Source: a virus. From it: 64,000 bases of DNA. This document shows positions 16,581 to 52,444 of the stretch, one piece after another (positions within the stretch are counted from its first letter, which is position 1; each line of letters begins with the position of its first letter). The stretch covers positions 7,919-71,918 of the IMG/VR virus record IMGVR_UViG_3300031997_002780, one strand, 5' to 3'. The translations under genes and the position numbers were made by a program. The notes under the pieces were generated by a model. The model had not been told where the DNA came from and searched no databases. It worked only from the letters and a program-made list of their open reading frames with translations.

Positions 16581-16598
16581 CATAAAATGTGCCTTTTA
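16581..16598. promoter_or_regulatory. CATAAAA-N6-TTTTA motif, copy 1 (other copies at 31862, 41954, 45854)
   Basis: CATAAAATGTGCCTTTTA at the gene junction upstream of the lysis cassette. Confidence 0.5.
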
Positions 16599-19500: not shown

Positions 19501-21383
19501 GTTAAAGTTGCACTAGGTAAATTTGTATATTCAATAATTATAGCGGAATTAGTTTGATAAGCTATATTATAATGACTGGTTAATATTATATTTTCAGAAG
19601 TTTGTAATTGTATTATATCTTGTATTATTAAATCTGGAATTTCCAGATTATAGGTTATTATTACATCATCGGATGTCTGTAATTGGGTTGTATCTTGTAT
19701 TGTTAAAGTCAGAGGCTCTGGAATATAGGTTATTATTACATTATCAGATGTCTGTAATTGAGTTACATCATTGACCAACAAATCTACATGTAAATTATAT
19801 TCAACCATTATTGCTGCATTACTTACTAGCATATAAGAATCTACTTCATACTCAACCATTATAGCAGCATTACTTTGATAAAAATTGATAAGAGGAACTA
19901 AAATTGTATTTTCACTGGTTTGTATTTGGACAGCATTGTTAACTAGTAGTATATGTTCCCCTATTCTCGGATTTCCACCAATAGCAAGATATGTAACCCA
20001 GTTTCGGGCATTATCTACAATACTCGTTTTTGTGTAAAAACCATTTGTTGCTACATAGGGAACATCCATTAAATATACTGCCGAACTTTCATATTGATGT
20101 ATATTTGCATAAACAGCAGTATCATAATTTGCGTTATAAACATACATAGTACCTAAGTTGTCTACATCAACCATTGCGGTAACAGCCTGGGTAATAGAAG
20201 TATCTATATTATTTGCCATTGCGCCTATAGATATTCTGTTATCGACTATAGGTATATCCTGAGTACATTGGGGTTGTCCTATAGATGCAAACAATACAGC
20301 AGATGGTTTAAAACCCAAGGTATTAAATTCTAGATTTGTGTCTGTTCTTGTGTTTAATTGATTTACTTGATAAATTCCACCTTTAAAAGCGATATAATGT
20401 ATAAGTCTGCTTGCTGCACCTTCAAGATGGTTTAATATAAACCCATTATTGGTAAAATCAACAAAAGATTCTCTTAATCCGATAGTTCCCGGAGTGCCAG
20501 CTACTGTTGTAGACGTAATAACTTCTCCCCCATATCCATAAGCCATTGTATTACTGGTTCCACCTAAATAGTTACTTTCTCCTGCGATAGTTCCCTGTCC
20601 GCCATTTGAAGCAGCCCATCCAATTTGAAATTTTGCATCTGTTCGATATATATCAGATGTACTATCAGTATTTGCAAATATAATTGCATCAGGCTTAAAG
20701 CCTACACTTGTAGTATAATTTCCTAAACTTGTAGGGGTATTTAAACTACCAACATATATTTCTTTTAATTCATCACCCCCGAGAGCGAGATAAGAGATAC
20801 GATAATCATTAACAAATTTAGTATTAACAATGAGAGTAAATCCATCTAAATCCATTGATTGTAAATTGAATTCTCCACCGAGACTATCATAATCACTATA
20901 TATACCTATTACATTAGTTCCTGACATTGCTGAACTGGTAAGTGATGTTGTTGTAGCGTCTTGCAGAGATATATCTACATAAAATATACTAGAAGCACTG
21001 GTTCCCACACCAAATCCATTATTGGAATTGTTTTTGACAACAGCATCTATTGTACTATGTGAACCTGTCCACCAAAACAAAACAACTTTAGGTTGGAAAC
21101 CAATTCCACTGATTGCCTGTGTTTCTCCTATGTTTTTGACGGTATCCGCATTAAAAGAACCGACTTTACTTAAAACAGTGTTGCCGGGATTATGACTATT
21201 TATTATTGGGTTTTCAGATGTTATTGCTTGAGTTGTATCGTTAACTCTTAATGCAATCCCTACTGGTTGGGAATATTGTGCTTGATTAGTGCTGTTGACA
21301 ACAAGACTGAGACCTTGTTCACTAAGTTTGATACCAAAGGTATTTCCTGAATCCCATAAAAATATATCATGAGAGTATGCCAT
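16596..21383 (-). CDS. Large repeat-containing tail fibre/appendage protein (1595 aa)
   Basis: Two homologous ~400-aa domains (SKVGSFN...GFQPKV.LFWW) separated by 22-aa and 17-aa tandem repeats; located in the tail module. Confidence 0.65.
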   Translation of the reverse strand: MAYSHDIFLWDSGNTFGIKLSEQGLSLVVNSTNQAQYSQPVGIALRVNDTTQAITSENPIINSHNPGNTVLSKVGSFNADTVKNIGETQAISGIGFQPKVVLFWWTGSHSTIDAVVKNNSNNGFGVGTSASSIFYVDISLQDATTTSLTSSAMSGTNVIGIYSDYDSLGGEFNLQSMDLDGFTLIVNTKFVNDYRISYLALGGDELKEIYVGSLNTPTSLGNYTTSVGFKPDAIIFANTDSTSDIYRTDAKFQIGWAASNGGQGTIAGESNYLGGTSNTMAYGYGGEVITSTTVAGTPGTIGLRESFVDFTNNGFILNHLEGAASRLIHYIAFKGGIYQVNQLNTRTDTNLEFNTLGFKPSAVLFASIGQPQCTQDIPIVDNRISIGAMANNIDTSITQAVTAMVDVDNLGTMYVYNANYDTAVYANIHQYESSAVYLMDVPYVATNGFYTKTSIVDNARNWVTYLAIGGNPRIGEHILLVNNAVQIQTSENTILVPLINFYQSNAAIMVEYEVDSYMLVSNAAIMVEYNLHVDLLVNDVTQLQTSDNVIITYIPEPLTLTIQDTTQLQTSDDVIITYNLEIPDLIIQDIIQLQTSENIILTSHYNIAYQTNSAIIIEYTNLPSATLTSAAIIVEYTNLPSATLTSAAIMVEYNLRFSLIVQDITQLQTSDNITFIMAIVFTIQDSAQLQSSDNVNLIQHYLLTINNITQLQNSDNINLIQHYLLTINNITQLQNSDNISLTQHYVLTINNSTHLQASDNISLTQHYLLAINNSTHLQTSDNIDLTQHYLLIINNTSQILISDNIDLIQHSVLAINNSTHFQASDNISLTQNNILITNNVTQIQVVDNIILNYHAEEAFVLEIQNGTQLQISSNIILTQYYILSINNSIQLQACDNIILTQHHTLSINSTIQLQISNNINLVQNYILLINNTTQLQNSDNVILIQHQILISNNAIQLQISGNILLIQNQVLVINNVIHLQISGNILLTQHYNLTISYSTQLQASDNVVLTQHNILSILNATHLQFSDNVQILTVGILGVHDSTQLQLCNNVIITGHGESFSLIINNTAQIQTSNNISLTFYTAPESGPYFSKVGSFNIDTSKTVGQTQSIRELGFQPKVILFWWHGSTSIINEVSGSTISFGISSATSGTNRGMHISISEDNQASTDAYSYSSAVEIVRIYTDTDTIDGILDFYSIDSNGFTVIVNDQFTKTYRINYLALGGSDVTNARVGYDTFPVPTGNKSYTGVGFKPDAALFFTGFTASLPLGSLQVYHSIGMATSSSNQGVISTTTADNQTTSNARGYGNNQDVTANLTFSSTTCSRRNSFVSFDNDGFTLNNMDGAAALYFFYVCIKGGRYSVGDLTTVTDGSDIVETVGFKPKTLLFMSANRAHNTRDVNSVQGSMSIGAATSTSNRIASSFWSENGLPDTETAFSVYDDAVYVNIKDDGVIGKMDLKSLDSTGFTTVMDTPDPSGCWVMYLAIGESVIKNAIQIQTATNITIVYNPLTLVMNNCSQVQTGDNLRIETNIHIIIAQASVQIQFSDNIRIETSIYMLGMIIDSTQIITSENILLGSGTKKYIYAHRKISFGIGKKGVGI
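18150..19400 (-). repeat. 66-nt (22-aa) coding tandem repeat, consensus NNxTQLQxSDNIxLTQHYxLxI
   Basis: Near-identical units visible at 18890-19320, degenerate on both sides; boundaries approximate. Confidence 0.9.
19424..19550 (-). repeat. 51-nt (17-aa) tandem repeat AAI(I/M)VEYTNLPSATLTS
   Basis: GCACTAGTTAAAGTTGC.CTAGGTAAATTTGTATATTCAA occurs twice; further AAIMVEY copies at about 19800-19870. Confidence 0.85.
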
Positions 21384-35071: not shown

Positions 35072-35896
35072 TTAACCTCCTTTTTCCATAAACATATTAT
35101 ATATATGTTTCCAACTCTCCCCTTTTAAAATATGATTAATATTTTTAGAAGAACATTTTTTTGAATATTTATCTGAAATTTCTTTTTTTGTAAATTTTTT
35201 AATAAAAAATGAATCTAGAATATCTAAAACATCTGATTCCTTAAGTATTGCTTTAGGGTTGTTTTCTCCTGTTCGGTTAGGATGATTTTCGGACATATTC
35301 TTTTTTGTCTCTTCAGAATGATGTTTTCCGAAAAAAGGATTATTTTCTCCAGATGAATCCCAATGATTTTTAGACATTTTCTTTTTTGTTTCTTCTAGCC
35401 TAGTTTTTCCTTTGTTAGAATTTGATATTCTTGTTTTTGTTTCTTCTGAACAATGTTTTCCAAAATTAGGATTATTTTCCCCTTTGTTAATTTCTCTTAA
35501 TTTGTTTTTTGTTTCTTCCGAGAGATGCCTTCCTTTGCCTAACTTTTTATGAGATTCTCTTAATTTTATTTTTGTTTCTTCTGATGTAACACGTCCGGAA
35601 GAACCATCCCCTCCTTTTGTCATATTATAACCAAATTCCGGATTATTGGTTTTATATTCCTTTATCCAATATATTTCTTTTTCTAACAAAATATTTTCTT
35701 CACAGTTTTCTATAATCCATAATTTAAAATTTTCTTTTCCATATTTACACCATGCTTTTCGAAGATGGTCATTTTTATGAATATTATTATTTAATTCTCT
35801 TTTATGAGCATTCCATCTTTTATTAATATTTACTGATTTTCCTATATATTTTTTATTGTTTATCATATTTTCTATACAATAGATTCCTGTTTCCAT
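35072..35896 (-). CDS. GIY-YIG homing endonuclease with NUMOD3 repeats
   Basis: GIYCIEN..N.KKYIG.S, GYN.T.GG, repeated GENNP.FGKH.SEETK. Confidence 0.9.
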   Translation of the reverse strand: METGIYCIENMINNKKYIGKSVNINKRWNAHKRELNNNIHKNDHLRKAWCKYGKENFKLWIIENCEENILLEKEIYWIKEYKTNNPEFGYNMTKGGDGSSGRVTSEETKIKLRESHKKLGKGRHLSEETKNKLREINKGENNPNFGKHCSEETKTRISNSNKGKTRLEETKKKMSKNHWDSSGENNPFFGKHHSEETKKNMSENHPNRTGENNPKAILKESDVLDILDSFFIKKFTKKEISDKYSKKCSSKNINHILKGESWKHIYNMFMEKGG

Positions 35897-35989: not shown

Positions 35990-38900
35990 TTATATAGCAA
36001 ACGAATCCGCTGTCCTTCTTATACCCCTTCTTTCGAGGCTTTTATTTATTTCTTTGATTACATCTTTTTTAAGTTTAGGTAATACTGTTTTATCTAAAGA
36101 ACCGTTTACATTTATGTTCATTTCAAAGTTCATATCCCTATAAGTATTTTCACGAGGATTGGATGATATTGGTCTTGTCAATTCTCCCGAAGAACGTTGA
36201 GTTGGAGAGATTATTTTAATTGCTTCTATATTAAAACTGGGAGGTTGAGGAGAACCGTTTTTACCCATTGGCTCTACATCTAATCGATTTTTCCCTCTAA
36301 GTTTTAAAGATTTCTCTTTTTCTGAGAACATATTATTGATTTCTGTAGCTATATTAGGGAGTGTTTTTCTCAAGAAGGTTTTCATTTGGTCTTCTGTAGC
36401 TACATATTCCCCTTTTAATAGTTTAGCAAAAACTTCACTGTCTTTTAAAGTTCCTTCAAATACATCTGGTCCATGTTCAGAAGCAAAACCACCTTCATGA
36501 CGAGGAGGACGAGGAGGAGGAGGGATGACGGGAGGAGTGACGGGAGGAGTAGTAGGAACTATTATTGCTGGACCCATAGGAGGTGTCCAACCGCTAGGTC
36601 CGGGATTTAGAGGTCCAGCATTAAACGCCGCCTCTGCTGCTGCTCTTGCATTATTGCTTTCTGTTATTAATCGTTTCATTTCTTCTATTGTTACATTGAT
36701 AGCTTTTGTTAAATCCCCATATTTTGCAATATTAATATCAAGCATTCTCTGCATTGCTGCGTCATTAAATGCTCCCACTATCCCGTTTTCTATCATTTTT
36801 AGTCTTAATTGTTCAAGAGCCGATAGCATACCCCCGCCACCGGGACCACCACCCATAGCCTTTGTAATTTCATTAATTAAATCTAATTCATCCTGAAGTA
36901 CTTCTATTTTATCGCCTATTAATTCTATTTGGTCTTCAATAGGCTTTTTTAAATCCTCTATTGCTCGCTTTTCATCCTCGTATTGGTGTATTATTAAATC
37001 AATGGCTTCTTGTTGCAGAGTAAGTGGATATATTAGTTCATCTAAAGCTACTTTTTGCTGTTCTAGCGGGTATATTAAGTCTTCTATTCTTATTTTTTCT
37101 TGTTCTAAACGAAATATAGCATCTTCTATTGGTATCTTTTGTTGTTCTAGACCATATATTATGTCATTTATTCTTAGTTTTTCAGCTTCAAGAGGTACTA
37201 TTAGAGCGTCTATCGCTTCTTTTTGTGTATTATATTTGTCTATAATCTCTTGAATTTTAGCTATTTGGTCATCGAGTAATGCTTTTTGCGCATTCATACC
37301 CTTTTCAAAAGCCGCATATGCATCATCTAAACCGCGTACTTGAAGGTCATATTCTCTATCTTCTTGAGTCTTAGCTAAATCTTCTCTAGCTGCGGCAGCT
37401 TCTTCTTCTAATTTTAATCTTCTTGCTATACCTTCTTCGCTGGTATCTAAAGATGCAATAGCAATTTCGGCTTCCAAGTTAGCGAGGGCTTTGTTCTTTT
37501 TAGTAAGTTCATCTAAGAAGTCCGCTTCTTCTTTTCGAAGTTGTAAAGCTTCTTTTTGTAAATCGATAGCTTCTTTAAAACTGCTAAGTTGTTTATCAAT
37601 TGCATCTTTCTGCTCTTCCAAAGGTTTTATTAATTCTTCTTGAGCATCTATTAAACTATCAATAAGCTCTTTTTGCCGTTCATACATTTCTATTTCACGG
37701 TCAATTAAGGATATTTCCCTTTGATACATTTCTATTTGACGGTCAATTTCGGCTGTTAGCCTATTGAGCATTTCTACTTGACGGTCAAGTAAATCTATCT
37801 GCTGTTGAAGTACATCTATTTGACGGTCAATTGCGTCTTTTTGCTTTTCATAAATATCTATCTGGTCTTGAATTACTTCTTTCTTTCTATTTTCTATTTC
37901 TATTAAATCATCAATGGCATCTATTTGTTCATCATAGATTTCCAATTGTTCTTGCATTAATTCTATTTCGTCTTCGTATGCTTTTATTTGTTTTTCAAGC
38001 GCTTCTGCTCGTGGGTCTTTCTTTTGACCACCGCCACCAGATGGGGCAGCAGGAAGATTTATAGGGGCAGGTTCATATGGAGTTAGATTTGTAACAAACT
38101 TAAAAAGGTCTGCCATATATTTAGCTAAATCAGCCATAATTTTAGCTGTTTTTTGACCTGATTGTATAGCTGCACTTTCAAAACTCAATAGTTGTGCCGC
38201 TAAAGCCGCTTGTAATTGTTGAACGGTAGTTAGAGAATTACCATTTATATCTGTAAAAACAATACCTTGATTTTCGGCTATAGAAAACAATTGTTGTGCT
38301 ATAGTTTGAGTCATTTGTGTCCATTGAGCTTCAGTTACAGCAGCCATTGCTCCAGTTTCATTTGTATATTCAACTAAAGTAGTGTTTGCAGTACCAGCTA
38401 AAGCAATCAGTTTATTTATTAATGAATTATATAAAATATCATTGGTAGACAATAAATCTGCATTAGTCATCATCCAAGAGATTAATTCTGTTCTATATGC
38501 TTGTACCTTTGCGGGGTCTAATGCTGTTCCAGCCGCATTATCAAGGTCATTAAATGATTTTATTGGAATTTCTAAACCTGTATCTTTGGCTAATTTTTCT
38601 AACTCGGTATTTGTTTGAAGTATAGCATCTGAAAGAGCAATACTATTATCACCCGTTTGCATTAAAGCTTTACCAAGAGCATCAAGAGATGGAGAAAGTT
38701 GGTCTATAATTTGCATTTGAGCTTTAAATTCAGCATTTAATTGCTCTGTTGTTGCTGTAGCTGATGTTGCACCATATTTTTCATAAAATGCTTTTTCTGC
38801 TGCTAAACGTGCTTCTCCTATTTGATTTTGATAATCTACTTCCGCTTCTTTCATAGCTGCTAATAATTCAGGATTATTTGCAGCAGCTAGTTCCATTGCC

Positions 38901-41824
38901 ATTCTAATATTTTTATATTCAGGCTCTGCCCGATGAGCAACCATCATATACATCTTTTTCCAATCGTTTGCTTGCTTACTTATCAAGCCTTTATTACTGG
39001 AAACAGACGAACTTGCTGCTTGAACCCAACCAGTCATCATATTTTGAAGTACTTGCCCTGATGTTCCATCTTTCATTGCTTTTTCGAGAGCATCGGCAAG
39101 GTCTTTATCCATTTGAGTTGCTGTAGGAACAAAAACAGATTTTCCACCCATTACCGGAATCCATTCCCCTTGATTTTTTACACTATCTATATAGGCTTTA
39201 GCTTCTGCATCTATATTTTCAGTACCTTTTTCAATTATTCCGTTTAAAGTGTTCCGTTTTTGTATTGCTTCATCTATAGCTTTATTCGCATCGGTTGTCA
39301 TTTTTGCTTGGTCAGAAAAATATGTTGCAATATCTTGATTTCCTAATGTTGTTGCAAGATAATAATCTACAGTAGCTTTTTCTAAATCTTCCATGTTTTG
39401 ACCAGCAACCAGTGTAGCATTTCCGAATTCATCAAAACTATATTTTAAATTAGGAACAACACTATATAAATCATTATATAATTTTGTTAATTTTTCTTCG
39501 TCTTCAGTACTTAATCCTTCGCTTGAACGTCTAGCTATCATAATTTGTATTTGATTGTACAAATCTATAGCGGTTTTTTGTTTTTCAGGAAATTCATCAA
39601 GAATTCCTAGATAATCATTTACTGCTTTAGTAAGTTCTTCTTGAGCCTTTTTTACATTATCGAGATTTTTTTGATATGCTTGCCAAATAGCAGTTATTGC
39701 TATAGCAGCTATTCCTAATAAACCCATAGCTGCGTTGAGTGCTGTTGTTGCTGCTGCTGCTCCTGTTGCAGCAATCTTATATGTCCCTGCTGCATATCCC
39801 ATTCCCTCCAAAGTAACAACCAAGGAATCTCCTGTAATCATAGATAAAGTTTGAGCAATGGTCATATCTATCTGAGAAATAGTTGCAAGTTTTTGTTGTG
39901 TAACCAAAGATACAAGACTCATAACAAGGTTTTTAATATTTTTTCCGGTATTTATTAAAGTATTCGTAATTGATTCTCTGTTGAAAATTATCATTAGAGC
40001 AATTATTTCTACAAGTAAAGGAGGTATTCCCCCGATAGAATCTATAAACTTTACTACAGCAATAGCTGCATCTAGGAACCATTTTATCATATTAGAATTA
40101 ACTGTTCCACTATAAAGAGCTTGCATTGCGGCTGTAAGTTGACCTTGTTTAGCTTGAACACTTTCTAAATAAATACCATAACGGTTCATTGCTAAACCAG
40201 TAGCATCAGTTTGGGCTGCTTGATATTGAAGAGCTTTGTCCATATTATTCATCAAAACAAGAAATGCCTCTTTTTGACGTACACCACCAATAGCGACAGC
40301 GATTTCTATTTGTTCTCTTTCGCCTAAAGTATCCCATTTAGCAGCGGTATCTTCTAACACATCGCCCATATTACGGAAAGTACCATCGGCTTCTTTCATA
40401 GAAATACCAACAGCATCTAATGATTTTTGAACTTTACTGATTGTCCAACCTTCTTCGTCTGTACCACCCCCTTGAATAAGGGTCATTCTAGCAAACATGG
40501 TCTTGAATGCTTGACCAATCATTTCTGCGTTCTGTCTGGTAACAGTAGAAACAGTACCAATATATGAAATTAATTGTTCCATACCAACACCAGCTAAAGC
40601 AGCCGATTCAGAAGTATATCTTAAAGCAGTTGCAAGTTCACCTGCACTGGTTGCGGCTATATTATCAACCGCAATAAGTTTATCAACAACAGTTGCAGTA
40701 TCACTAACCGATACTTTAAAAGCATTTGTGATAGATGTTAAATAGTTAGTAGCATCGGCAGAATCCATTGCACCCAATTTAGAAAGCATCATAGATGCTC
40801 TCATAAGTTTCTGAGTTTCATCAACCGTTCTACCCTGTCTAAACCATTCCACACTACCTTTTGCGATTTCAAGAGTAGAAGCTCCCATCTCCTGACCTAA
40901 TTTGTTAAAAGATTGGGCTAAATCATTAATTTGTTCTGGTGTTTGTGCTCCTTCTGCTTGAAGTACCTGAATTTTAGTCATTTCAGTATTCAAATCAATG
41001 GCGTATTTCACAGCATCGTTGAATAATTGTTGAGCTTTATATACTAATCCAATAGAAAAAGAATAGGCGATGGTCTGTTGGATGGCATTAGCAATTCTAT
41101 TGGAAAAACTCTGAAATACATTTGCACCAGTTTTTGTACCTTCCATTGCAGTATTCATTCCCGCAAATGCGTCTCTCAATTTTTTCACATTATCTGCGGT
41201 GAGTTCTCCCGCTTTCCCTAATCTTGTAAAAGTTTCTATCTCATTTTTTAGTGCAGCAACAGATTGTTTTGCTGCACTAACCTGAGTACCCCTCATTCCA
41301 GATAATTTTTTTTCGTTTTTATCAGCCGCAGCAGTATATCTTGTTAAATCACCTGCCATTTTGTCAGTATCAGTTGAAGTCAATTTTACTATCTGCTGAA
41401 ACTTTTCCATAGCCTGAGATTCTGAAAGAAGTTTAACTTTCCCTTCGTCTATAGCTTTCTGTAAATTTTTTTCTGTCTGCGTATAATCTTTTGCTATTTT
41501 TGTAGTTCCACCAAATGCATCTCCGAGTTCTTTAACTTCCCCGGTTTGAATTTTAAATATTCCTTTTTCTGTTTTAATAGTTTTAAAAGTTGCTATTAAT
41601 TTTCCAGTTCCGAGAGTAGCCGCATCAGTCATTTTTGTAAATTCTTCAATACCACCTAGCATGTTAACCATGCTTTTACCTTCCCGCATAGCAGGTAAGT
41701 CAAGCTTAAATGACTTGGATGCTTGGGAAAGTTTAGCATTCATATCGGCTACCGTTTTATCAACAGAACTCGGCATAAACACTGTCGTGACAGGAAATAC
41801 AATCTCTAAACCACCACTAGCCAT
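35990..41824 (-). CDS. Tape measure protein (1944 aa)
   Basis: TP901-like core (EIAKGSVEWFRQG, DKL.AVDN.AATS..ELA.AL, IG.AFKTMFARM), long coiled coil, and C-terminal HEGG...EVFAKLLKGEYV. Confidence 0.92.
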   Translation of the reverse strand: MASGGLEIVFPVTTVFMPSSVDKTVADMNAKLSQASKSFKLDLPAMREGKSMVNMLGGIEEFTKMTDAATLGTGKLIATFKTIKTEKGIFKIQTGEVKELGDAFGGTTKIAKDYTQTEKNLQKAIDEGKVKLLSESQAMEKFQQIVKLTSTDTDKMAGDLTRYTAAADKNEKKLSGMRGTQVSAAKQSVAALKNEIETFTRLGKAGELTADNVKKLRDAFAGMNTAMEGTKTGANVFQSFSNRIANAIQQTIAYSFSIGLVYKAQQLFNDAVKYAIDLNTEMTKIQVLQAEGAQTPEQINDLAQSFNKLGQEMGASTLEIAKGSVEWFRQGRTVDETQKLMRASMMLSKLGAMDSADATNYLTSITNAFKVSVSDTATVVDKLIAVDNIAATSAGELATALRYTSESAALAGVGMEQLISYIGTVSTVTRQNAEMIGQAFKTMFARMTLIQGGGTDEEGWTISKVQKSLDAVGISMKEADGTFRNMGDVLEDTAAKWDTLGEREQIEIAVAIGGVRQKEAFLVLMNNMDKALQYQAAQTDATGLAMNRYGIYLESVQAKQGQLTAAMQALYSGTVNSNMIKWFLDAAIAVVKFIDSIGGIPPLLVEIIALMIIFNRESITNTLINTGKNIKNLVMSLVSLVTQQKLATISQIDMTIAQTLSMITGDSLVVTLEGMGYAAGTYKIAATGAAAATTALNAAMGLLGIAAIAITAIWQAYQKNLDNVKKAQEELTKAVNDYLGILDEFPEKQKTAIDLYNQIQIMIARRSSEGLSTEDEEKLTKLYNDLYSVVPNLKYSFDEFGNATLVAGQNMEDLEKATVDYYLATTLGNQDIATYFSDQAKMTTDANKAIDEAIQKRNTLNGIIEKGTENIDAEAKAYIDSVKNQGEWIPVMGGKSVFVPTATQMDKDLADALEKAMKDGTSGQVLQNMMTGWVQAASSSVSSNKGLISKQANDWKKMYMMVAHRAEPEYKNIRMAMELAAANNPELLAAMKEAEVDYQNQIGEARLAAEKAFYEKYGATSATATTEQLNAEFKAQMQIIDQLSPSLDALGKALMQTGDNSIALSDAILQTNTELEKLAKDTGLEIPIKSFNDLDNAAGTALDPAKVQAYRTELISWMMTNADLLSTNDILYNSLINKLIALAGTANTTLVEYTNETGAMAAVTEAQWTQMTQTIAQQLFSIAENQGIVFTDINGNSLTTVQQLQAALAAQLLSFESAAIQSGQKTAKIMADLAKYMADLFKFVTNLTPYEPAPINLPAAPSGGGGQKKDPRAEALEKQIKAYEDEIELMQEQLEIYDEQIDAIDDLIEIENRKKEVIQDQIDIYEKQKDAIDRQIDVLQQQIDLLDRQVEMLNRLTAEIDRQIEMYQREISLIDREIEMYERQKELIDSLIDAQEELIKPLEEQKDAIDKQLSSFKEAIDLQKEALQLRKEEADFLDELTKKNKALANLEAEIAIASLDTSEEGIARRLKLEEEAAAAREDLAKTQEDREYDLQVRGLDDAYAAFEKGMNAQKALLDDQIAKIQEIIDKYNTQKEAIDALIVPLEAEKLRINDIIYGLEQQKIPIEDAIFRLEQEKIRIEDLIYPLEQQKVALDELIYPLTLQQEAIDLIIHQYEDEKRAIEDLKKPIEDQIELIGDKIEVLQDELDLINEITKAMGGGPGGGGMLSALEQLRLKMIENGIVGAFNDAAMQRMLDINIAKYGDLTKAINVTIEEMKRLITESNNARAAAEAAFNAGPLNPGPSGWTPPMGPAIIVPTTPPVTPPVIPPPPRPPRHEGGFASEHGPDVFEGTLKDSEVFAKLLKGEYVATEDQMKTFLRKTLPNIATEINNMFSEKEKSLKLRGKNRLDVEPMGKNGSPQPPSFNIEAIKIISPTQRSSGELTRPISSNPRENTYRDMNFEMNINVNGSLDKTVLPKLKKDVIKEINKSLERRGIRRTADSFAI

Positions 41825-41933
41825 CTAGCACCTCCTTCTCCATCTCTTTTATCACTTCTTCGCTTTTTTTAATGTCGAAGACAGTTGCAATAGGGAAGAT
41901 AATTTCTATTCTGCTTCCAGAAGCTATTGTCAT
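41817..41933 (-). CDS. Unlisted 38-aa ORF paralogous to the tape measure N-terminus
   Basis: MTIASGSRIEIIFPIATVFDIKKSEEVIKEMEKEVLDG; SD GAGGAGG; its end overlaps the TMP start codon. Confidence 0.7.
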   Translation of the reverse strand: MTIASGSRIEIIFPIATVFDIKKSEEVIKEMEKEVLDG

Positions 41934-41960
41934 ATAAACCTCCTCAATAAAACCATAAAA

Positions 41961-42956
41961 CTACAATTTTAAGTTCTCTAAACCCTCATATATTCTATCT
42001 CGGGCTGATGTGTCGTCGTAAATTTGAATCATATCACTTGACCACCCCATTAATTCTTTAATTAATTGTGGGGGTATATTTTTCTTTGAAAATAATGTTA
42101 CTAAATAATGACGGACCGCATGGGCGTAAAAGGGTACACCTAAATATTTTTCAAAGCCTTCAATCCAACCTCGTACAGTAGCACCAGTAGCAGGAGTTCC
42201 GTCTTGTTTAATAAATAAAAAATTATGATTTAATTTTTTTTCTTTTAAAATTTTGGCTCTTTCTTTAAGCCATTCTTTATAATAAGGCATAAACTTTTCT
42301 TTTAAAATATATTTATAAAGTAATTTTCCTGATTTTCCCTTGCCTTTTGTACGGATTTGCTTTGTGGTTTCGATAAATAAATCTCCAAACGCAGTTCTAT
42401 TTTCATCAATTAAATCTGTCTCGAAACATAATAATTCTGTAAATCTAGCACCGCTAGTTGCAGCGAGGGCGAGCCAACACGCTTGTTGCTTTTCATTTTT
42501 ACTTAAGTGTTCTAAAAGATTTTCCATTTGTTCGTCTGTTAAAATAGTTTTTTCTCTCCGCATTTCTTTGGGACTCGATTCTATAATATTCAAAATCACA
42601 TTGCGAAAATTAGGGTATTCTTCGTCATAGAACTTAGTAATAAAATTAGATAGAGAAGATAATGTGCTTCTAAGATTATTTAATCTAGCCGAACCTAGTT
42701 TTAATTCTTCTGATGCATAAGAGAAAAATTCGGAAAATTCTAATTTTTTAATATCTGTAAATTTTTTATTGTTATTATTTAAAAGATTCCATGATAAAAA
42801 CATTGTCAAATTTGACTCATAAACTGTAATAGTTTTAGGGCTAACCCTTATTTGTTTATCTTTTAAAAACCTATTCATTAAAGATATATTTTCAGAATTT
42901 ATTTGTGATGTTAATTCATCAGATGTTATTATTTTTCTAAATGTTTTTCTTGGCAT
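41961..42956 (-). CDS. Tyrosine recombinase
   Basis: SGARFTE (R), TKGKG (K), HAVRH (HxxR), MGW, IY (Y); SAM-like N-terminus. Confidence 0.9.
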   Translation of the reverse strand: MPRKTFRKIITSDELTSQINSENISLMNRFLKDKQIRVSPKTITVYESNLTMFLSWNLLNNNNKKFTDIKKLEFSEFFSYASEELKLGSARLNNLRSTLSSLSNFITKFYDEEYPNFRNVILNIIESSPKEMRREKTILTDEQMENLLEHLSKNEKQQACWLALAATSGARFTELLCFETDLIDENRTAFGDLFIETTKQIRTKGKGKSGKLLYKYILKEKFMPYYKEWLKERAKILKEKKLNHNFLFIKQDGTPATGATVRGWIEGFEKYLGVPFYAHAVRHYLVTLFSKKNIPPQLIKELMGWSSDMIQIYDDTSARDRIYEGLENLKL

Positions 42957-42958
42957 TT

Positions 42959-43675
42959 TTATTCTCCGTTTTGATAATCTTGAGGAAAATTAAGTTTACC
43001 TAAATCATGATAAAATTCCCAAGATGATTTGTCAAAAGTTTTTGCAGCTTCGATGATATCCGAGTAATAACCTAAATATATTCTATTCCTATTTGTAGGA
43101 TTAACAATTCTAACTATAAAATAATTGTGTTTATCTTTTGTTATTCCTATATATCCTAATTTATTGTTTTTATTTTTTTTACAAGACGATGAGTTGCTTG
43201 CTTTTTTTCTTGATTCCTCGGAAACAACTCTTCCCTTTAGTGCTTTGGATATTTTATCTAATGTTTCTTTAGATAATCGTTTTCCGTACATGGGGTTGTT
43301 TATACCAGAAAGAGCCACTCTTAGTTTTTCTCTATGCTCATCTGTAATAATTACATTTCTCATTGGGGTGATTCCTCCCCACGATATATTATATCCGCTT
43401 TCTGTGGAGTGAGAATGTAATTCTTTTATCCAATAAATCTCTCTTTCATCCAATAAGTCTATATGGCATTTCTCTATAATAAAAAACTTAAAACAATCTT
43501 TTCCATATTTATTCCATGCCTTTTGAAAGTAGACATTATTTGATTTATTATTTTCAAGTTCTCTCATGTGTCTCTTATATCTTCTATTTATATCTTGAGT
43601 TTGACCTATATATTTTTTACTATCTATTATATTTTCAAAACAATATATACAAGAACAAGTGTCTAATTTTCTCAT
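42959..43675 (-). CDS. GIY-YIG homing endonuclease with NUMOD3 and AP2 domains
   Basis: CIYCFEN....KKYIGQT; C-terminal YIGI...YLGYY....EAAK.FD.......LNFP. Confidence 0.88.
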   Translation of the reverse strand: MRKLDTCSCIYCFENIIDSKKYIGQTQDINRRYKRHMRELENNKSNNVYFQKAWNKYGKDCFKFFIIEKCHIDLLDEREIYWIKELHSHSTESGYNISWGGITPMRNVIITDEHREKLRVALSGINNPMYGKRLSKETLDKISKALKGRVVSEESRKKASNSSSCKKNKNNKLGYIGITKDKHNYFIVRIVNPTNRNRIYLGYYSDIIEAAKTFDKSSWEFYHDLGKLNFPQDYQNGE

Positions 43676-44148
43676 TTTATAACTCCGCTCTTAATGAAGA
43701 ATGTAAGCCCTACAGAAAAAGCATCTGACTCGTCATAATTCTGAAGTTTTATTTTTGGGTATTTCTCTTTAATCACCCAATATATTTCTTCTTTAGTCAT
43801 ATTCCCCTTTCCTCCAACTATCTTTTTTACGCTGGATGCCGGATAATAGGTCTGTTCATATTCTGCAAATAAATAATTTACTAAACCATGAACTCTAAAA
43901 ATCATTTGAGTACTTTGATTATAACGAGTAAACCCTTGTTCAATCACAAGTATTTCGGGCGCATATTCTTTTGCTATTTTTTTTAATTCATTTCCAATAA
44001 TTTGTAGCTTAAGCTTGGTTTCATTTTCGCTTTTAGTATCTATGGTAAATGCTTTTACAAATTTACCATCATTGGAAAAAATACATACCCCTGTAGAATT
44101 TAAAGATAAATCTAATGCATATACATATGTTTCCATTATACCTCCCAA
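43672..44148 (-). CDS. ruvC: RuvC-like Holliday junction resolvase
   Basis: ALDLSLNSTG, VIEQG, VKK..GGKG...KE, DESDAFSV. Confidence 0.85.
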   Translation of the reverse strand: MGGIMETYVYALDLSLNSTGVCIFSNDGKFVKAFTIDTKSENETKLKLQIIGNELKKIAKEYAPEILVIEQGFTRYNQSTQMIFRVHGLVNYLFAEYEQTYYPASSVKKIVGGKGNMTKEEIYWVIKEKYPKIKLQNYDESDAFSVGLTFFIKSGVIK

Positions 44149-45868: not shown

Positions 45869-46081
45869 TTAAAAGGCTAAATCATCTTCTTGTCTGCGTA
45901 TCCTTTTTTGCTCCATTTCTCTTTCATACCCACAATTTTTATTAGAACAAGCAATGTATTCTTCAGCAACAACAACAGGAATTCCATTTCTTATTTCACT
46001 TATGTCTCTCACTCTAATTTGAAGTATGCTCTTACATTCCGGACAACGTTCACTAAGGGAACGCTTTAGTCTGCCTATCAT
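45869..46081 (-). CDS. Small zinc-ribbon protein
   Basis: CPEC...CSNKNC. Confidence 0.65.
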   Translation of the reverse strand: MIGRLKRSLSERCPECKSILQIRVRDISEIRNGIPVVVAEEYIACSNKNCGYEREMEQKRIRRQEDDLAF

Positions 46082-46082
46082 T

Positions 46083-46682
46083 TTATTCCTTTTTTATCCC
46101 ATCATTCAGTTCGTCTATTAAAGGTTGCTCTATAGAAGCTAAATCAGAAGGGTTTCTCATGATATTAGCTTTTTCTAAATCATCAATAAGTCCCATTCCA
46201 ACATTTTGTAATTCCTTAATATCGTCCGGGGAAATCTTGTTTATTTGGTCTATAAATCCTTCGGCTTTTGCTAATAAATCAGAAAGAACTTTTCCGAGTG
46301 AGTTGTCTAACTTTTCTTGTTCTTTTACTTCATAAACAACTTCGTCTAATCTTCTTTTAAAATTCCAATAATTAGTAATTTCTCTAGTTATCATTTCCCA
46401 AAGTTTATCATCGACGTATATATTATTATCCACATCACTCATGTCAATGTTTGTGTTGAGTTGGATAATATAAAACATTAACCTACATTCTGCTTCAAAA
46501 ACATGATATTTAGTTTTTTCTACCACAATTTCAGTTATGTCTCCAAAGAAATCTTTAATATATTCGTTGATTAAAAGTACTTCTTCTGAAAAATCGATAA
46601 ATGGGTTTATTTCTATACTTACCCCATCATATTCAATTATTTTGTTTTCCGGAGTTTTTATCTCCAATTTAACCTTATCCAT
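46083..46682 (-). CDS. Hypothetical protein, possibly a tail assembly chaperone
   Basis: Acidic helical protein downstream of the tail tube gene. Confidence 0.45.
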   Translation of the reverse strand: MDKVKLEIKTPENKIIEYDGVSIEINPFIDFSEEVLLINEYIKDFFGDITEIVVEKTKYHVFEAECRLMFYIIQLNTNIDMSDVDNNIYVDDKLWEMITREITNYWNFKRRLDEVVYEVKEQEKLDNSLGKVLSDLLAKAEGFIDQINKISPDDIKELQNVGMGLIDDLEKANIMRNPSDLASIEQPLIDELNDGIKKE

Positions 46683-46755: not shown

Positions 46756-47163
46756 TTATGTTCCGTAAGCAATCCAAGATACAAGGGCATAGTGTGCCGC
46801 CATGCTTCCTGAAGCTGCAATCAAAGGTGTCCAGCTTGCGCTAGTAACCATCCAAGACGAGACCCAAATAACCCCCGCAACACTACCTGTAGTAGCCGTA
46901 ACCTTACTGTGTATGTTTGTAGGACTTCCCGATAACTCAGCTACAACCCCGAGAACAGTTGATAATCCTGTAACTATTGGTATAACTGGACCACTCGGGG
47001 TAAAAGACCCACTGATAATCCTTTTATAGCCAGATACGCTACTTCCAGAAATAACTATACTTCCAGAAGTTACTAAAGCATCTAATACACTCCCTAGCGC
47101 TACATCTTGTGCGGCGCTCATGGAGTTATTCAAATTTGTAATTTGTGTTGAAGTTAAAGCCAT
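46756..47163 (-). CDS. Putative small virion (decoration) protein
   Basis: Ser/Gly-rich beta protein ending in WIAYG; strong SD AAAGGAGG. Confidence 0.5.
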   Translation of the reverse strand: MALTSTQITNLNNSMSAAQDVALGSVLDALVTSGSIVISGSSVSGYKRIISGSFTPSGPVIPIVTGLSTVLGVVAELSGSPTNIHSKVTATTGSVAGVIWVSSWMVTSASWTPLIAASGSMAAHYALVSWIAYGT

Positions 47164-47183: not shown

Positions 47184-47477
47184 TTAGCTTTTAGATACAT
47201 AAATAATATCGCCAGCTTTTAATTTCTTATTTTTATATTCTTCCGGGATAGCGATTTCTGTTCCGCTTCCATTGCTATCAATCCCATAAAATCCCGCAGA
47301 ATCGACTCTAAGAATTGTAAAGGGAAATTTATCAGATGTAGGTTTTGATTCTACAGATTTTTCAATTTCTTCTATTACTTCTTCACTTTCTTTCAAATCG
47401 AAAACAGGTTCAACGGGAAATTCTATACTTTCTTTTTCTCTATTGTCTATATTTTCTTCAATATTCTTTTTTGGCAT
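47184..47477 (-). CDS. Hypothetical protein carrying a motif like the TMP N-terminus
   Basis: SIEFPVEPVFDLKESEEVIEEIEK. Confidence 0.55.
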   Translation of the reverse strand: MPKKNIEENIDNREKESIEFPVEPVFDLKESEEVIEEIEKSVESKPTSDKFPFTILRVDSAGFYGIDSNGSGTEIAIPEEYKNKKLKAGDIIYVSKS

Positions 47478-47524: not shown

Positions 47525-48577
47525 TTATGCGGCAACTGTAACTCCGACATACCCGATAATTGTAGAAGCCGACGTAGCTGAAGCCGATATAACAACCGAG
47601 CCAGCCGCCAATGCTACAACTGAACCACTATGAGGTGCAGCACTTACGCAACTCGCAGCAGTGGAGCTAAAAGAAAGATATACATTAGGAACTTTAAAAG
47701 CGCTCCCTGTATAAGGAATAGCATAAACCACAAAGGTTTTACTTTCACCAACTGTTAATGAAACATTTCCACCTGAAAAAGATAATGACGAAATATTATC
47801 ATACCAGTTTGTATTATCTATAATTTCAGTAATTGTAGCATAGTATGAATCAACTGTACATGCATCTGCACCTGTAGCGGTTGGTGTATAAGCAAGAGCC
47901 GTACCAGTAAGCGGTGTATTGGATACACCATCAGCTTTCATGGAGATTGTAAAAGCTCCTGAAAGTTGTGCTCTAGGTACAATAATTTGTACCATACCAA
48001 TCTTATTTGTAGTAACATCAGCAGAATTCAACTGAGTTTCCATAACCAATTTCAAAACTTGTGGAATCATACTTGCTTTGATGGTGATACTTTTTCCAGC
48101 ACTTACGTTTGCTGTAAGATAACGTACACACCAATTTCCACTTGTTTCAGTTCCTACAACAGGAAAACTTCCTATTGAACCACTGAATGTAACTCGTTGG
48201 GTAACACCCAAAGGAGAAGTTGCCCAACCATATATGGTTGTACCTGTGAACGCTAAAGGTATTTCACTAACAGAACCAGAACTACCTTGAACTGCTATGG
48301 TTTCTTGCACATAATAGTTACCAAGTTCATATGTACCACCCACTGTTGCTCCAACTAATTCTAGATTCCATTGCGCTTCTGTTAAGTTAAATTTCATTTC
48401 CGCAGTGTGATAGTAAGTATAAAGCAATTGATTACCACGTCCACCACGAACAGGTGCTGAACCTAGAGAAACTTCGATAGAACTGTCTAGCAGTGTCTTT
48501 GCTACGAAAAGCAGATTATCATCGTTGTCATACCCAAAAACGTCTGCGACACTTGTCAAGAATTTCTTTATAGCCAT
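47525..48577 (-). CDS. Major tail (tube) protein with a C-terminal Ig-like domain
   Basis: KTLLDSSIE......VRGGRGNQL...Y.H..., QI..PRAQLSG.F.ISM..DG; position after the neck genes. Confidence 0.75.
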   Translation of the reverse strand: MAIKKFLTSVADVFGYDNDDNLLFVAKTLLDSSIEVSLGSAPVRGGRGNQLLYTYYHTAEMKFNLTEAQWNLELVGATVGGTYELGNYYVQETIAVQGSSGSVSEIPLAFTGTTIYGWATSPLGVTQRVTFSGSIGSFPVVGTETSGNWCVRYLTANVSAGKSITIKASMIPQVLKLVMETQLNSADVTTNKIGMVQIIVPRAQLSGAFTISMKADGVSNTPLTGTALAYTPTATGADACTVDSYYATITEIIDNTNWYDNISSLSFSGGNVSLTVGESKTFVVYAIPYTGSAFKVPNVYLSFSSTAASCVSAAPHSGSVVALAAGSVVISASATSASTIIGYVGVTVAA

Positions 48578-51306: not shown

Positions 51307-51765
51307 TTACACCCCCGAGAATGATTGGGTATACCAATCAGTCCAGTCATTTCTTTTATAACTATAATCTTGTAATAGCTGAGAACATTGTTCTTTTACT
51401 ATGTTTAGATGATTTGATTTTTCTCTTAGATTTTGTGCTTCAGAAGCTATCTTAAAATCTCGGTCAGTTATATGCAAATTTAGTTGGGTTATATCTCCCA
51501 CAACCTTTTGGAGCCAATATCTCATCATTAGCGTAGCTAAGATGGTTTTATTGTCCCGGCTTAATTCAGCCGGGAATTCTTTTGTGGTATTATTGTAATT
51601 TAGGTCTTGGTCACATACTTTAAAATCTACAATTGCAAAATCTAACCATTTTTGTAGATAATCTTCAAAATCCGGGAGAGATGTATTAAACAAATCTATG
51701 AGCCTATAATCAGTAACAGTCATAAGAAAATAATCGTAAATCTCAGATAAACTTGTATTAGCCAT
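51307..51765 (-). CDS. Head-tail adaptor; probable start MANTS at 51765
   Basis: T.LSEIYD.FL..VTDY, ILA.LM...W, DFK..S.A..L; position after the capsid gene. Confidence 0.6.
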   Translation of the reverse strand: MANTSLSEIYDYFLMTVTDYRLIDLFNTSLPDFEDYLQKWLDFAIVDFKVCDQDLNYNNTTKEFPAELSRDNKTILATLMMRYWLQKVVGDITQLNLHITDRDFKIASEAQNLREKSNHLNIVKEQCSQLLQDYSYKRNDWTDWYTQSFSGV

Positions 51766-52444
51766 TTTCGCCTCCATATGAAAAGTTAAGCGGATTGCTT
51801 AAATTATTTGTGATTATATAAGAATCATATGCTTTTGCTGCATCTTCTTCTTTTTCATAAATTCCTATATATTTACTTTTTCCATTTAAACATATTCCAG
51901 CGACCCATTTGTTATTGGGTTTTTTAAAACATACGCCTAAAAACTTAGAAGAGGTGATTTTTCTTTTCTTTCCAAAAAAAGGATTATTATTTTTAGAAAT
52001 ATCTGCGTGATTTTTAGATATATTTTTTTTATGCTCCTCTGAAAAAACTTTTCCTTTGGAAGATTTTGACATTCTCTCTTTTGTTTCTGCCGAATGGATT
52101 TTTCCTGTTCTAGATTTTGACATCTTTTCTTTTGTTTCTTTAGAATGTCTTCCGTTCCTTCCCGCTGTTTTTATATTATATCCTTTATCCGGATTAAGAG
52201 TATCGTAGGCAATAATCCAATAATTTTCCATTAAATCTAAAAGATTTTCATTACATTCTTGAATAATAGAAAATTTAAAATTTTCTTTACCATACCTATT
52301 ATATGCTTTTTGGAGGTGATTATTTCTATGTCTATTATATTTCAAACTATTTCTATGTCTTATTATTCTATTACTAATATCAATAGCTTGACCGACATAC
52401 TTCTTATTGTTCACAGTATTTTCGATACAATAGATGCCAATCAT
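51758..52444 (-). CDS. GIY-YIG homing endonuclease with NUMOD3 and AP2 domains
   Basis: GIYCIEN.VN.KKYVGQ; SKFLGV....KW.A.I...YIG.Y..EEDAAKAYD. Confidence 0.9.
   Translation of the reverse strand: MIGIYCIENTVNNKKYVGQAIDISNRIIRHRNSLKYNRHRNNHLQKAYNRYGKENFKFSIIQECNENLLDLMENYWIIAYDTLNPDKGYNIKTAGRNGRHSKETKEKMSKSRTGKIHSAETKERMSKSSKGKVFSEEHKKNISKNHADISKNNNPFFGKKRKITSSKFLGVCFKKPNNKWVAGICLNGKSKYIGIYEKEEDAAKAYDSYIITNNLSNPLNFSYGGENG

What the first reader, a model, noticed from the sequence alone, without database searches (positions are those of the whole stretch)
41817..41933. Hidden micro-ORF mimics the tape measure N-terminus, and the motif recurs in a third gene
Seen: micro-ORF ASGSRIEIIFPIATVFDIKKSEEVIKEMEK, TMP start ASGGLEIVFPVTTVFMPSSVDKTVADMNAK, and the 97-aa protein (47184) ESIEFPVEPVFDLKESEEVIEEIEK. 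The micro-ORF has a strong SD and overlaps the TMP start. Inference: free copies of the TMP N-terminal peptide could fill symmetry-mismatched sites at the tail top (for example three TMP chains in a six-fold tube) or act as assembly decoys or chaperones.
Basis: partly seen in the sequence, partly recalled or inferred. Interest (0 to 1): 0.7.

Follow-up and report, generated by a model that had tools for sequence, protein, structure and literature searches.

The report
Small gene copying tape-measure N-terminus
A 38-codon gene just upstream of a phage's tail tape measure gene is a conserved, selected copy of the tape measure's first strand-and-helix, probably a small tail-assembly partner, though nobody has shown that the peptide is made or what it binds.

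Summary
ORF 41817-41933 (-) has a GAGGAGG Shine-Dalgarno site, and its stop overlaps the start of the tape measure (TMP, PF10145) gene by 8 nt.

It is a real gene, not a remnant:
- It is intact in the window and in two diverged IMG/VR relatives.
- 11 distinct peptide versions (34-50 aa) exist in protein databases.
- Pairwise dN/dS is 0.17-0.34 at pS 0.44-0.60, at or below the value for TMP itself.
- The other two frames of that strand are full of stops.

Reciprocal profiles link it to the TMP N-terminus (E 4e-6 to 1.8e-5). It arose by tandem duplication of the TMP ribosome site plus about 30 codons. It occurs only in the sub-clade whose TMP starts with EIVFPV: 3 of 3 such genomes, against 0 of 11 other related contigs.

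The link to the 97-aa protein is weaker. It appears in 2 of 6 close orthologues, lies in a disordered acidic tail, and fails under BLAST composition adjustment.

The function is inferred. In phage 80alpha, TMP residues 1-37 (strand plus helix) form a five-stranded sheet with the tail completion protein. This peptide is a free copy of that unit, so I propose it joins or caps the TMP N-terminal bundle. That is untested.

The parts
41817..41933 (-). micro-ORF, 38 codons: flexible MTIASGS, hydrophobic strand RIEIIFPIATVF, then an amphipathic acidic stretch DIKKSEEVIKEMEKEV taken to be helical by likeness to the TMP helix; the last ~8 codons are read through the TMP ribosome-binding site
   Evidence: orthologues; dN/dS
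41939..41945 (-). Shine-Dalgarno GAGGAGG of the micro-ORF, 5 nt before its ATG; the same context is kept in L001 and L002
41830..41836 (-). Shine-Dalgarno AGGAGGT of the TMP gene, lying inside micro-ORF codons 33-35 (K-E-V)
41817..41824 (-). 8-nt overlap ATGGCTAG: TMP start codon and micro-ORF stop codon (termination-reinitiation geometry)
   Evidence: the overlap length varies in L002 and P0008
35990..41824 (-). tape measure protein gene, 1944 aa, PF10145 at residues 305-514
41717..41824 (-). TMP codons 1-36: the N-terminal strand (LEIVFPVTTVF) plus helix (residues 21-37 in the AF2 model) that is the paralogue of the micro-ORF
47184..47477 (-). 97-aa protein: disordered acidic N-terminal tail plus a conserved small OB-like beta-barrel (residues 50-97)
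47352..47435 (-). motif-like stretch (residues 15-42, KESIEFPVEPVFDLKESEEVIEEIEKSV) in the N-terminal tail of the 97-aa protein
   Evidence: not conserved in L001 or L002
41961..42956 (-). tyrosine recombinase gene (PF00589) ending 27 nt upstream of the micro-ORF; in relatives without the micro-ORF it is followed directly by the TMP gene

Best explanation
Shown. The 38-codon ORF is a genuine small gene under selection. It was born when the 5' end of the TMP gene (ribosome-binding site plus about the first 30 codons) was duplicated in tandem in the ancestor of one sub-clade of uncultured sediment siphophages. The upstream copy kept the ancestral junction with the recombinase gene. It runs out of frame through the TMP ribosome-binding site and stops 8 nt inside the TMP gene.

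Inferred. The two are co-transcribed, since no promoter or terminator lies between them on that strand. Both have strong Shine-Dalgarno sites, so both are translated in roughly comparable amounts, with the overlap giving coupling.

Inferred from a solved analogue. The peptide is a free-standing copy of the strand-plus-helix unit with which TMP chains end at the head-proximal tip of the tail. In phage 80alpha, three such units form a five-stranded sheet and a five-helix bundle with the tail completion protein. I propose that the peptide adds its strand and its acidic helix to the three TMP N-termini. It would act either as a permanent part of that cap or as a transient cap for the sticky N-terminal strand until the tube reaches the end of the TMP. 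The similar stretch in the 97-aa protein may use the same site in this genome, but it is not a conserved part of the system.
For: Gene reality.
- The ORF is intact, at the same place and with the same SD, in the window, in L001 and in L002. Their TMP N-terminal 600 aa are 64-68% identical to the window's.
- There are 7 peptide versions in the 5.8-billion-protein set and 4 more small peptides (P0008, P0009, P0011, P0014) among 1.84 billion representatives.
- Pairwise dN/dS is 0.17, 0.26 and 0.34, with pS 0.44-0.60 against pN 0.18-0.21 (Fisher p 1e-4, 0.004, 0.019). For comparison, TMP codons 1-600 give 0.28-0.35 and TMP codons 1-36 give 0.43-0.44.
- 8 of 13 invariant residues between S5 and K22 carry synonymous third-base changes (codon alignment). 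This stretch lies outside the TMP SD, so TMP's translation signals cannot explain its conservation.
- The other two frames of the strand hold stops in all three genomes.
- The RNA fold is not better than shuffles, z 0.92.

Origin.
- Reciprocal profile hits run between micro and the TMP N-terminus.
- Orthologues group by type (FPIxTVFDIK against FPVxxVFxPSS), so the duplication predates the split of the three genomes.
- Micro-ORF ATG to TMP ATG is 109, 106 and 109 nt.
- The micro-ORF is present in 3 of 3 genomes whose TMP starts with the motif. It is absent from 11 of 11 other related IMG/VR contigs. In 8 of those I read the recombinase-TMP junction, and the profile found no copy in any of the 11.

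Function.
- The N-terminal 26 residues of the TMP are not ordered in a monomer AF2 model, which puts a helix at residues 21-37.
- 80alpha TMP residues 1-37 are strand plus helix, in a sheet and bundle with a monomeric tail completion protein (PMC11661146, passages).
- TMP N-termini sit at the DNA end in phage 812 (PMC12886913, passages).
Against: - There is no evidence of translation. No RNA run holding the stretch was available and no proteomics exists.
- No partner has been identified.
- DNA for the selection test exists for only three sequences of 37-40 codons, so the dN/dS values have wide error.
- Relatives make tails without the micro-ORF (11 contigs), so it is not a general requirement.
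- Whether this phage has a canonical tail completion protein is unknown. The 186-, 262- and 156-aa proteins upstream of the tube gene match no Pfam family or solved structure, and only the 156-aa one hits a PHROG, of unknown function.
- Context for the five extra motif-bearing TMPs (P0010, P0013, P0015, P0017, P0018) could not be fetched, so the co-occurrence count rests on three genomes.
Confidence: 0.45

Rival explanations
1. Leader ORF only. The micro-ORF exists to load ribosomes and couple them to the TMP start after the weakly expressed recombinase gene, and the peptide has no function of its own.
For: The stop overlaps the TMP start by 8 nt, the TMP SD lies inside the ORF, and no promoter or terminator lies between them. 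The C-terminal tail varies in length and sequence.
Against: Selection acts on the amino-acid sequence of codons 5-22, far from the TMP signals, with many synonymous changes at invariant residues. The TMP has a strong SD of its own. 11 related contigs express the TMP from the same position without any leader. A sequence-independent leader would not keep a likeness to the TMP N-terminus at saturated synonymous divergence.
Confidence: 0.12
2. Cis-acting regulatory nascent peptide. The conserved peptide stalls or tunes its own ribosome and so sets the rate of TMP translation (peptide-dependent upstream ORF).
For: The peptide is under selection and the ORF overlaps the TMP start. This would explain why the peptide sequence matters even if it has no binding partner.
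Against: No known arrest motif was recognised, though this is my own recall and no arrest-motif library was searched. It does not explain why the peptide mimics the TMP N-terminus, or why it occurs only with motif-type TMPs. The region has no RNA structure that stalling could open (z 0.92).
Confidence: 0.1
3. Decoy against a host or prophage defence that recognises the TMP. A free copy of the TMP N-terminus titrates a sensor or blocker.
For: Defences that target the TMP exist, such as Tab of phage JBD26 (PMC10884400, passages). The ORF is lineage-specific and lies in a variable, mobile-element-rich region. It arose together with a change of the TMP N-terminus.
Against: No defence is known to read the TMP N-terminus; the Tab paper passages I read name no region. 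The host is unknown. PADLOC was not searched, because the micro-ORF has no domain hit in Pfam or PHROGs. Steady purifying selection, without signs of an arms race, fits a structural role better.
Confidence: 0.1
4. Neutral duplication remnant that has not yet decayed.
For: It is short and confined to one sub-clade, and relatives do without it.
Against: It stays open in all 3 genomes with DNA at pS 0.44-0.60, where each of the other two frames has 2-6 stops. There are 11 distinct peptide versions with the same core. dN/dS is 0.17-0.34, at or below the TMP's own.
Confidence: 0.06
5. Programmed +1 frameshift that fuses the micro-ORF to the TMP, giving a minor TMP form with two tandem strand-helix units.
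For: The TMP frame is +1 relative to the micro-ORF, and a strong SD-like sequence lies shortly before the stop. Frameshifting is common just upstream of TMP genes, but in the chaperone pair and in the -1 direction (established knowledge).
Against: No shift-prone codon is conserved. The overlap reads GAT GGC TAG, AAT GGC TAG and TAT GGC AAC AGG TAA in the three genomes, and stop positions differ further in P0008 and P0009. The SD-to-stop spacing does not fit the prfB type (recalled).
Confidence: 0.03

Closest known systems
TMP N-terminal cap with the tail completion protein in S. aureus phage 80alpha (gp56 residues 1-37 x3 + gp51), Kizziah et al., PMC11661146 (passages read)
   Same: The unit involved is the first ~37 residues of the TMP, a beta-strand followed by an alpha-helix. 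Three TMP strands are completed by extra strands and helices from a small separate protein. The micro-ORF peptide is 38 aa, has the same strand-helix layout, and is acidic like the face that the completion protein turns to the TMP.
   Different: gp51 is a folded monomer with a hairpin and two helices, is unrelated to the TMP, and is encoded among the neck genes. Here the extra piece is a paralogue of the TMP's own N-terminus encoded directly upstream of the TMP. No structure or binding has been shown here.
Tail assembly chaperones gpG/gpGT (lambda) and their analogues, encoded just upstream of TMP genes
   Same: It is a small acidic product encoded immediately 5' of the TMP gene, and it is expected to act on the TMP during assembly.
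   Different: The chaperones are ~100-150 aa and folded, and they are made as two forms by a -1 frameshift. They are not paralogues of the TMP. The micro-ORF is 38 aa with no family hit and no conserved slippery site. A separate chaperone-like candidate pair (199 aa + 70 aa, 45869-46682) sits between the tube gene and the TMP gene, but it too has no family hit.
Translationally coupled upstream or leader ORFs of bacterial and phage operons
   Same: It is a short ORF with its own SD, its stop overlaps the next start codon, and the next gene's SD lies inside it.
   Different: The peptide sequence is under purifying selection and is homologous to the N-terminus of the protein encoded downstream.
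Tab / anti-Tab (phage JBD26), a defence acting on the TMP (PMC10884400, passages read)
   Same: It shows that the TMP is a target and that small phage proteins can act as counter-measures in tail assembly.
   Different: There is no sequence relation, and the decoy idea here is pure inference.

Membership tests
Phage tape measure protein (for the 1944-aa neighbour) | PhageMin_Tail / TP901-type core domain (PF10145) in a very long, largely helical protein downstream of the tube and chaperone genes | tested here: met
   PF10145 at E 7.8e-31, residues 305-514. A tube-like 350-aa protein lies upstream, with a weak PDB hit to tail tube proteins, E 0.005.
Micro-ORF family (new; defined here) | 34-50 aa; core [IV][EK]I[IV]FP[IV]xT/AVFDIK followed by an amphipathic acidic, presumably helical, stretch; encoded between the recombinase and TMP genes and overlapping the TMP start | tested here: met
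   Sequence core in 11 distinct peptides. Genomic position checked in the 3 genomes with DNA. Position unknown for the other 8 peptides.
Tail assembly chaperone (gpG/gpGT type) | Position immediately upstream of the TMP gene | tested here: met
Tail assembly chaperone (gpG/gpGT type) | About 100-150 aa folded domain belonging to a chaperone family | tested here: not met
   38 aa; 0 Pfam and 0 PHROG families at E 0.01
Tail assembly chaperone (gpG/gpGT type) | Second, longer form made by a conserved -1 frameshift | tested here: not met
   No conserved slippery site; the downstream frame is +1 and the overlap sequence differs among genomes
Tail completion protein (lambda gpZ / SPP1 gp16.1 / 80alpha gp51) | Sequence or fold membership (hairpin flanked by helices, about 110-190 aa) | tested here: not met
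   38 aa with one strand and one helix; no family hit; no look-alike in the ESM Atlas
Tail completion protein (lambda gpZ / SPP1 gp16.1 / 80alpha gp51) | Forms a sheet and helical bundle with the three TMP N-termini inside the neck | not testable with these tools
   Needs a structure or binding assay; see Tried and rejected for the one modelling attempt
Sequence-independent coupling leader ORF | Own SD, with the stop overlapping the downstream start | tested here: met
Sequence-independent coupling leader ORF | Peptide sequence free to drift | tested here: not met
   dN/dS 0.17-0.34; 17 of 38 positions invariant in 7 versions

The most novel reading that the evidence does not exclude
The peptide is a virion component. 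It would be a minimal 'tail completion' piece that evolved from the tape measure itself by duplication of its first 30 codons. It would supply the extra strand(s) and helix needed to close the asymmetric sheet and bundle formed by three TMP N-termini under the DNA end. It would then leave with the TMP at ejection. That would show one route by which neck-plug proteins arise, and would give a defined, tiny handle on how tube growth is stopped at the end of the ruler.
Probability: 0.25. Interest if true: 0.7.

Novelty: new variant of a known kind. Interest (0 to 1): 0.5.

Why it matters
How the head-proximal end of the tape measure is capped, and how that end tells the tube to stop growing and later holds back the DNA, is only now becoming visible. 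The 80alpha neck structure is from 2024-25, and T5 and phage 812 show other solutions.

A phage lineage that encodes a free copy of exactly this TMP end offers two things:
- A natural experiment, because close relatives lack both the copy and the motif.
- A very small, synthesizable reagent for testing what the TMP N-terminus binds.

It is also a clean case of a functional micro-gene born from the 5' end of its neighbour. This is a class that annotation pipelines and family libraries do not name. My three further literature searches listed no description of such a gene; I read only their listings plus passages of PMC12886913 and PMC10884400.

Tried and rejected
- Complex prediction. The job used 3 x TMP(1-60) + 1 x micro-ORF, both as alignments. 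The score was 0.01 against a mark of 0.32, so there is no verdict and no controls were run. It says nothing for or against binding.
- Monomer model of TMP 1-140. Mean pLDDT was 53, too poor for a fold search. I used it only for the helix at residues 21-37 and the unordered N-terminus.
- The 97-aa protein. The AF2 model (pLDDT 67, C-terminal half ~85) gave no BFVD match at E <= 0.001. It gave only generic OB-like barrels in the PDB (best Z 6.8). The ESM Atlas gave nothing above 0.86. No function could be assigned.
- Expression. No RNA holder was listed among 22 runs. The four DNA runs I laid are contigs and show only strain variants.
- More genomes. GenBank phages held no relative (1 irrelevant hit). 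The species genomes yielded 0 relatives out of 71 pattern matches. IMG/VR scans with three further motif-type TMPs found only contigs already held, or none.
- Neck and terminator candidates (186, 262 and 156 aa) had no solved relative at E <= 0.1, so I could not say whether a canonical completion protein exists.
- RNA element: rejected (z 0.92).
- Frameshift fusion: rejected for lack of a conserved shift site.
- Recent DNA-level gene conversion between the micro-ORF and the 97-aa gene: rejected. By my own count from the sequences printed, nucleotide identity is 50 of 75, and 11 of 16 identical residues use different codons.
- A shuffle test of the pairwise scores was not run; the BLAST and HMMER statistics stand in for it.
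- Supplementary files of the papers were not seen.
Full report
**What is there**

The window is most of a 71.9-kb single-contig genome. It is about 33% GC and has no close relative among GenBank phages.

On the minus strand the tail module reads as follows:
- a 350-aa tube-like protein (47525-48577; PHROG 2729; weak match to solved tail tube proteins, E 0.005)
- the 97-aa protein (47184-47477)
- proteins of 135, 199, 70, 401 and 123 aa with no family
- a RuvC-like resolvase
- a GIY-YIG homing endonuclease
- a tyrosine recombinase (41961-42956)
- the 38-codon ORF (41817-41933)
- a 1944-aa tape measure protein (35990-41824) with PF10145 at E 7.8e-31

The micro-ORF has GAGGAGG 5 nt before its ATG. 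Its TAG lies 8 nt inside the TMP ORF (ATGGCTAG). The TMP's own AGGAGGT lies within micro-ORF codons 33-35. No promoter-like or terminator-like site separates recombinase, micro-ORF and TMP on that strand. The region does not fold better than shuffles (z 0.92).

**Is the likeness more than chance?**

*Micro-ORF versus TMP N-terminus.*
- BLASTP gives 10/17 identities, pairwise E 2e-5.
- Against all 1350 six-frame segments of the genome, E is 0.007-0.01.
- A profile made from three TMP N-termini alone finds the three micro-ORF types at E 4e-6, 1.5e-5 and 1.8e-5. It finds nothing else below E 1 among 9079 six-frame segments of the genome and all loci.
- The micro-only profile finds TMP N-termini at 8.6e-7 (L002), 0.0034 (window) and 0.08-0.1 (L001).

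*Micro-ORF versus the 97-aa protein.*
- The match is 16/25 identities. E is 3.6e-7 without composition adjustment and 7.4 with it.
- The adjusted pairwise result is E 0.009 over 13 residues.
- HMMER profiles that exclude the 97-aa rows give 1.8e-5 and 9.7e-6 for the window's protein, and 0.012 and 0.0011 for L014's.

*TMP versus the 97-aa protein.* There is no alignment.

The micro-ORF therefore resembles the TMP in its first half and the 97-aa protein in its second, acidic half.

**Relatives**

The N-terminal 600 aa of the TMP found 13 IMG/VR loci with the same gene order: tube, 97-aa, 135-aa, 199-aa, 70-aa, variable genes, RuvC, recombinase, TMP.

Two of them carry a micro-ORF between recombinase and TMP, with the same SD context. 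These are L001 and L002, whose TMP N-termini are 68% and 64% identical to the window's. Their TMPs also start with the motif: MASGLEIVFPVSMVF... and MATGNSGMEIVFPVTTIF....

In the other 11 contigs (TMP 44-54% identical) the picture differs:
- The TMP starts differently, for example MAQVGMTVNFKTAMDIT....
- In the 8 contigs where I read the junction, the TMP follows the recombinase directly.
- L012 and L013 have an HNH-like ORF in between.
- L009 has only 699 nt of flank.
- The motif profile finds no copy in any of the 11.

The N-terminal ~120 residues of all these TMPs align as one domain. So the motif-type N-terminus is a diverged version of the clade's normal N-terminus, and the micro-ORF is the extra copy.

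Protein databases add more versions. Seven micro-ORF peptides were already called as genes (P0001-P0007, 38-52 aa as called). Four more small peptides were found among 1.84 billion representatives (P0008, P0009, P0011, P0014; 34-50 aa). Five further TMPs of 1714-1885 aa begin with the motif at residue 1. In all, 11 proteins reached E <= 0.001 in that search. The remaining two are P0016 (60 aa, motif at its C-terminal end) and P0012 (a tandem-repeat protein of unclear relevance).

**Selection**

For the three genomes with DNA, Nei-Gojobori counts for the micro-ORF give:
- sd/S of 14.0/23.2, 12.2/23.0 and 10.2/23.2
- nd/N of 16.0/87.8, 18.8/91.0 and 16.8/87.8
- dN/dS of 0.17, 0.26 and 0.34, with Fisher p of 1.2e-4, 0.004 and 0.019

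The same script gives 0.28-0.35 for TMP codons 1-600, 0.43-0.44 for TMP codons 1-36 and 0.07-0.11 for the recombinase.

The other two frames on the strand have 2-6 stops in each genome.

In 7 peptide versions, 17 of 38 positions are invariant. E34, V35 and G38 coincide with the TMP SD and start. S5 to K22 do not, and 8 of the 13 invariant residues there show synonymous third-base differences. So the peptide sequence itself is constrained.

The caveat is that these are three short sequences, related by descent.

**Origin**

- The ATG-to-ATG distance is 109, 106 and 109 nt.
- The likeness to the TMP ends near residue 31. After that the micro-ORF reads through the TMP SD.
- Micro-ORFs group with micro-ORFs and TMP N-termini with TMP N-termini across genomes.
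- Synonymous sites between the two paralogues are scrambled.

This fits one tandem duplication of 'SD plus about 30 codons' in the common ancestor of the sub-clade. Both copies were then retained without concerted evolution.

**The 97-aa protein**

Its C-terminal half (residues 50-97) is conserved across the clade. It models as a small OB-like barrel (pLDDT about 85; best PDB Z 6.8, generic). Its N-terminal half is an acidic, low-confidence tail of variable length.

The motif-like stretch is clear in only two orthologues, as this tally shows:

| Orthologue | State of the motif-like stretch |
|---|---|
| Window (P0019 is 99% identical, so it is not counted apart) | clear |
| L014 / P0020 | clear |
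| P0021 | shortened |
| P0022 | dissolved into EEPV-type repeats |
| L002 | dissolved into EEPV-type repeats |
| L001 | absent |

The profile does not detect the L001 or L002 copies. Both L001 and L002 have the micro-ORF, so the third copy is not a conserved part of whatever the micro-ORF does. Whether it is an old paralogue, a local acquisition or partly convergent is open.

**Mechanism**

*Shown:* the gene is real, selected, and a paralogue of the TMP's first strand plus helix.

*Inferred:* it is made together with the TMP.

*Inferred from an analogue:* in the 80alpha neck, only residues 1-37 of the TMP are ordered. Each TMP gives one strand to a five-stranded sheet completed by the hairpin of a monomeric tail completion protein, and the helices form a five-membered bundle (PMC11661146, passages read). 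In phage 812 the TMP N-termini abut the DNA end without such a protein (PMC12886913, passages). In T5 the TMP runs to the top of the terminator (10.1101/2024.10.16.618446, passages).

The AF2 monomer model of this TMP leaves residues 1-26 unordered and puts a helix at 21-37. That is what one expects of a strand needing partners. A 38-aa free copy of this unit is therefore well suited to add a strand and an acidic helix to the TMP N-terminal bundle. It could be a fixed component, or a transient cap of the sticky hydrophobic strand.

The known precedent is an asymmetric sheet, not a six-fold ring.

**Rivals**

- A sequence-independent coupling leader is contradicted by selection on codons 5-22.
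- A cis-acting regulatory nascent peptide is possible, but it does not explain the mimicry.
- A decoy against a TMP-directed defence is possible. The Tab precedent is PMC10884400, but there is no specific support here.
- A neutral remnant is contradicted by conservation.
- A +1 fusion to the TMP lacks any conserved shift site.

**Novelty**

No Pfam or PHROG family covers the peptide. Of four full-text searches, the three aimed at this question listed no description of a TMP-derived micro-gene. I read only the listings, plus passages of the four papers named above.

I rate it a new variant within the known kind of small tail-assembly accessory genes next to the TMP. Interest is moderate until translation and binding are shown.

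Noticed in passing
window 41961-42956 and 43672-44148; L001-L013: A tyrosine recombinase and a RuvC-like resolvase sit inside the tail module directly upstream of the TMP gene. This holds in the window and in every relative with enough flank. The recombinase is the most conserved gene measured (81-86% aa identity among close relatives; dN/dS 0.07-0.11). Its role there is unexplained.
   Followed up: partly
window 42959-43675, 51758-52444, 35072-35896: Three GIY-YIG/NUMOD3 homing-endonuclease genes are scattered through the structural module. Relatives carry such genes at other positions (for example L004 at 463-1125 and 2514-3134, L014 at 311-949 and 2345-3154), so they are mobile within this clade.
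   Followed up: partly
L012 7560-13475 (and L013): The TMP reading frame breaks after ...GSVEWF inside the PF10145 core and resumes about 1.2 kb later. The insert holds a 268-aa ORF (8789-9595). A 251-aa Cys-rich HNH-like ORF (6749-7504) lies between recombinase and TMP. This looks like an intron or homing-endonuclease insertion in a tape measure gene.
   Followed up: partly
L002 2909-3226; P0022: The acidic N-terminal tail of the 97-aa protein family evolves by short tandem units. L002 has EEPVFENKV twice, and P0022 has EEPVLENKVVEPVEK. The C-terminal OB-like barrel stays constant.
   Followed up: partly
P0012 (146 aa) and P0016 (60 aa): P0012 has four tandem VPVATVFDVSSAE units followed by unrelated sequence. 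P0016 carries the motif (LPITTVFDIKTPEETIGEI) at its C-terminal end after a basic N-terminus. Their genomic contexts are unknown.
   Followed up: no
window 46756-47163; L004 13721-17791: The 135-aa protein after the 97-aa gene resembles the N-terminus of a 1356-aa protein downstream of the TMP in L004 (31% over 125 aa, E 3e-5). This may be a shared fibre or adaptor module.
   Followed up: no
window 18001-20000: Inside the 1595-aa ORF (16596-21383, minus strand), GC drops to 0.26 and the GC skew changes sign relative to its surroundings.
   Followed up: no
window 41889-41955 in runs X7, X8, X10, X12: Contigs from other sediment runs match the recombinase 3' end and then diverge just upstream of the micro-ORF. 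Some diverge into an MTTT-type micro-ORF start and one into a further variant (..NTVFDIRNSK..). Others diverge into the RBS context of micro-ORF-less relatives. So both genome types occur in the same set of sediment runs (both kinds of loose end in run X7).
   Followed up: partly
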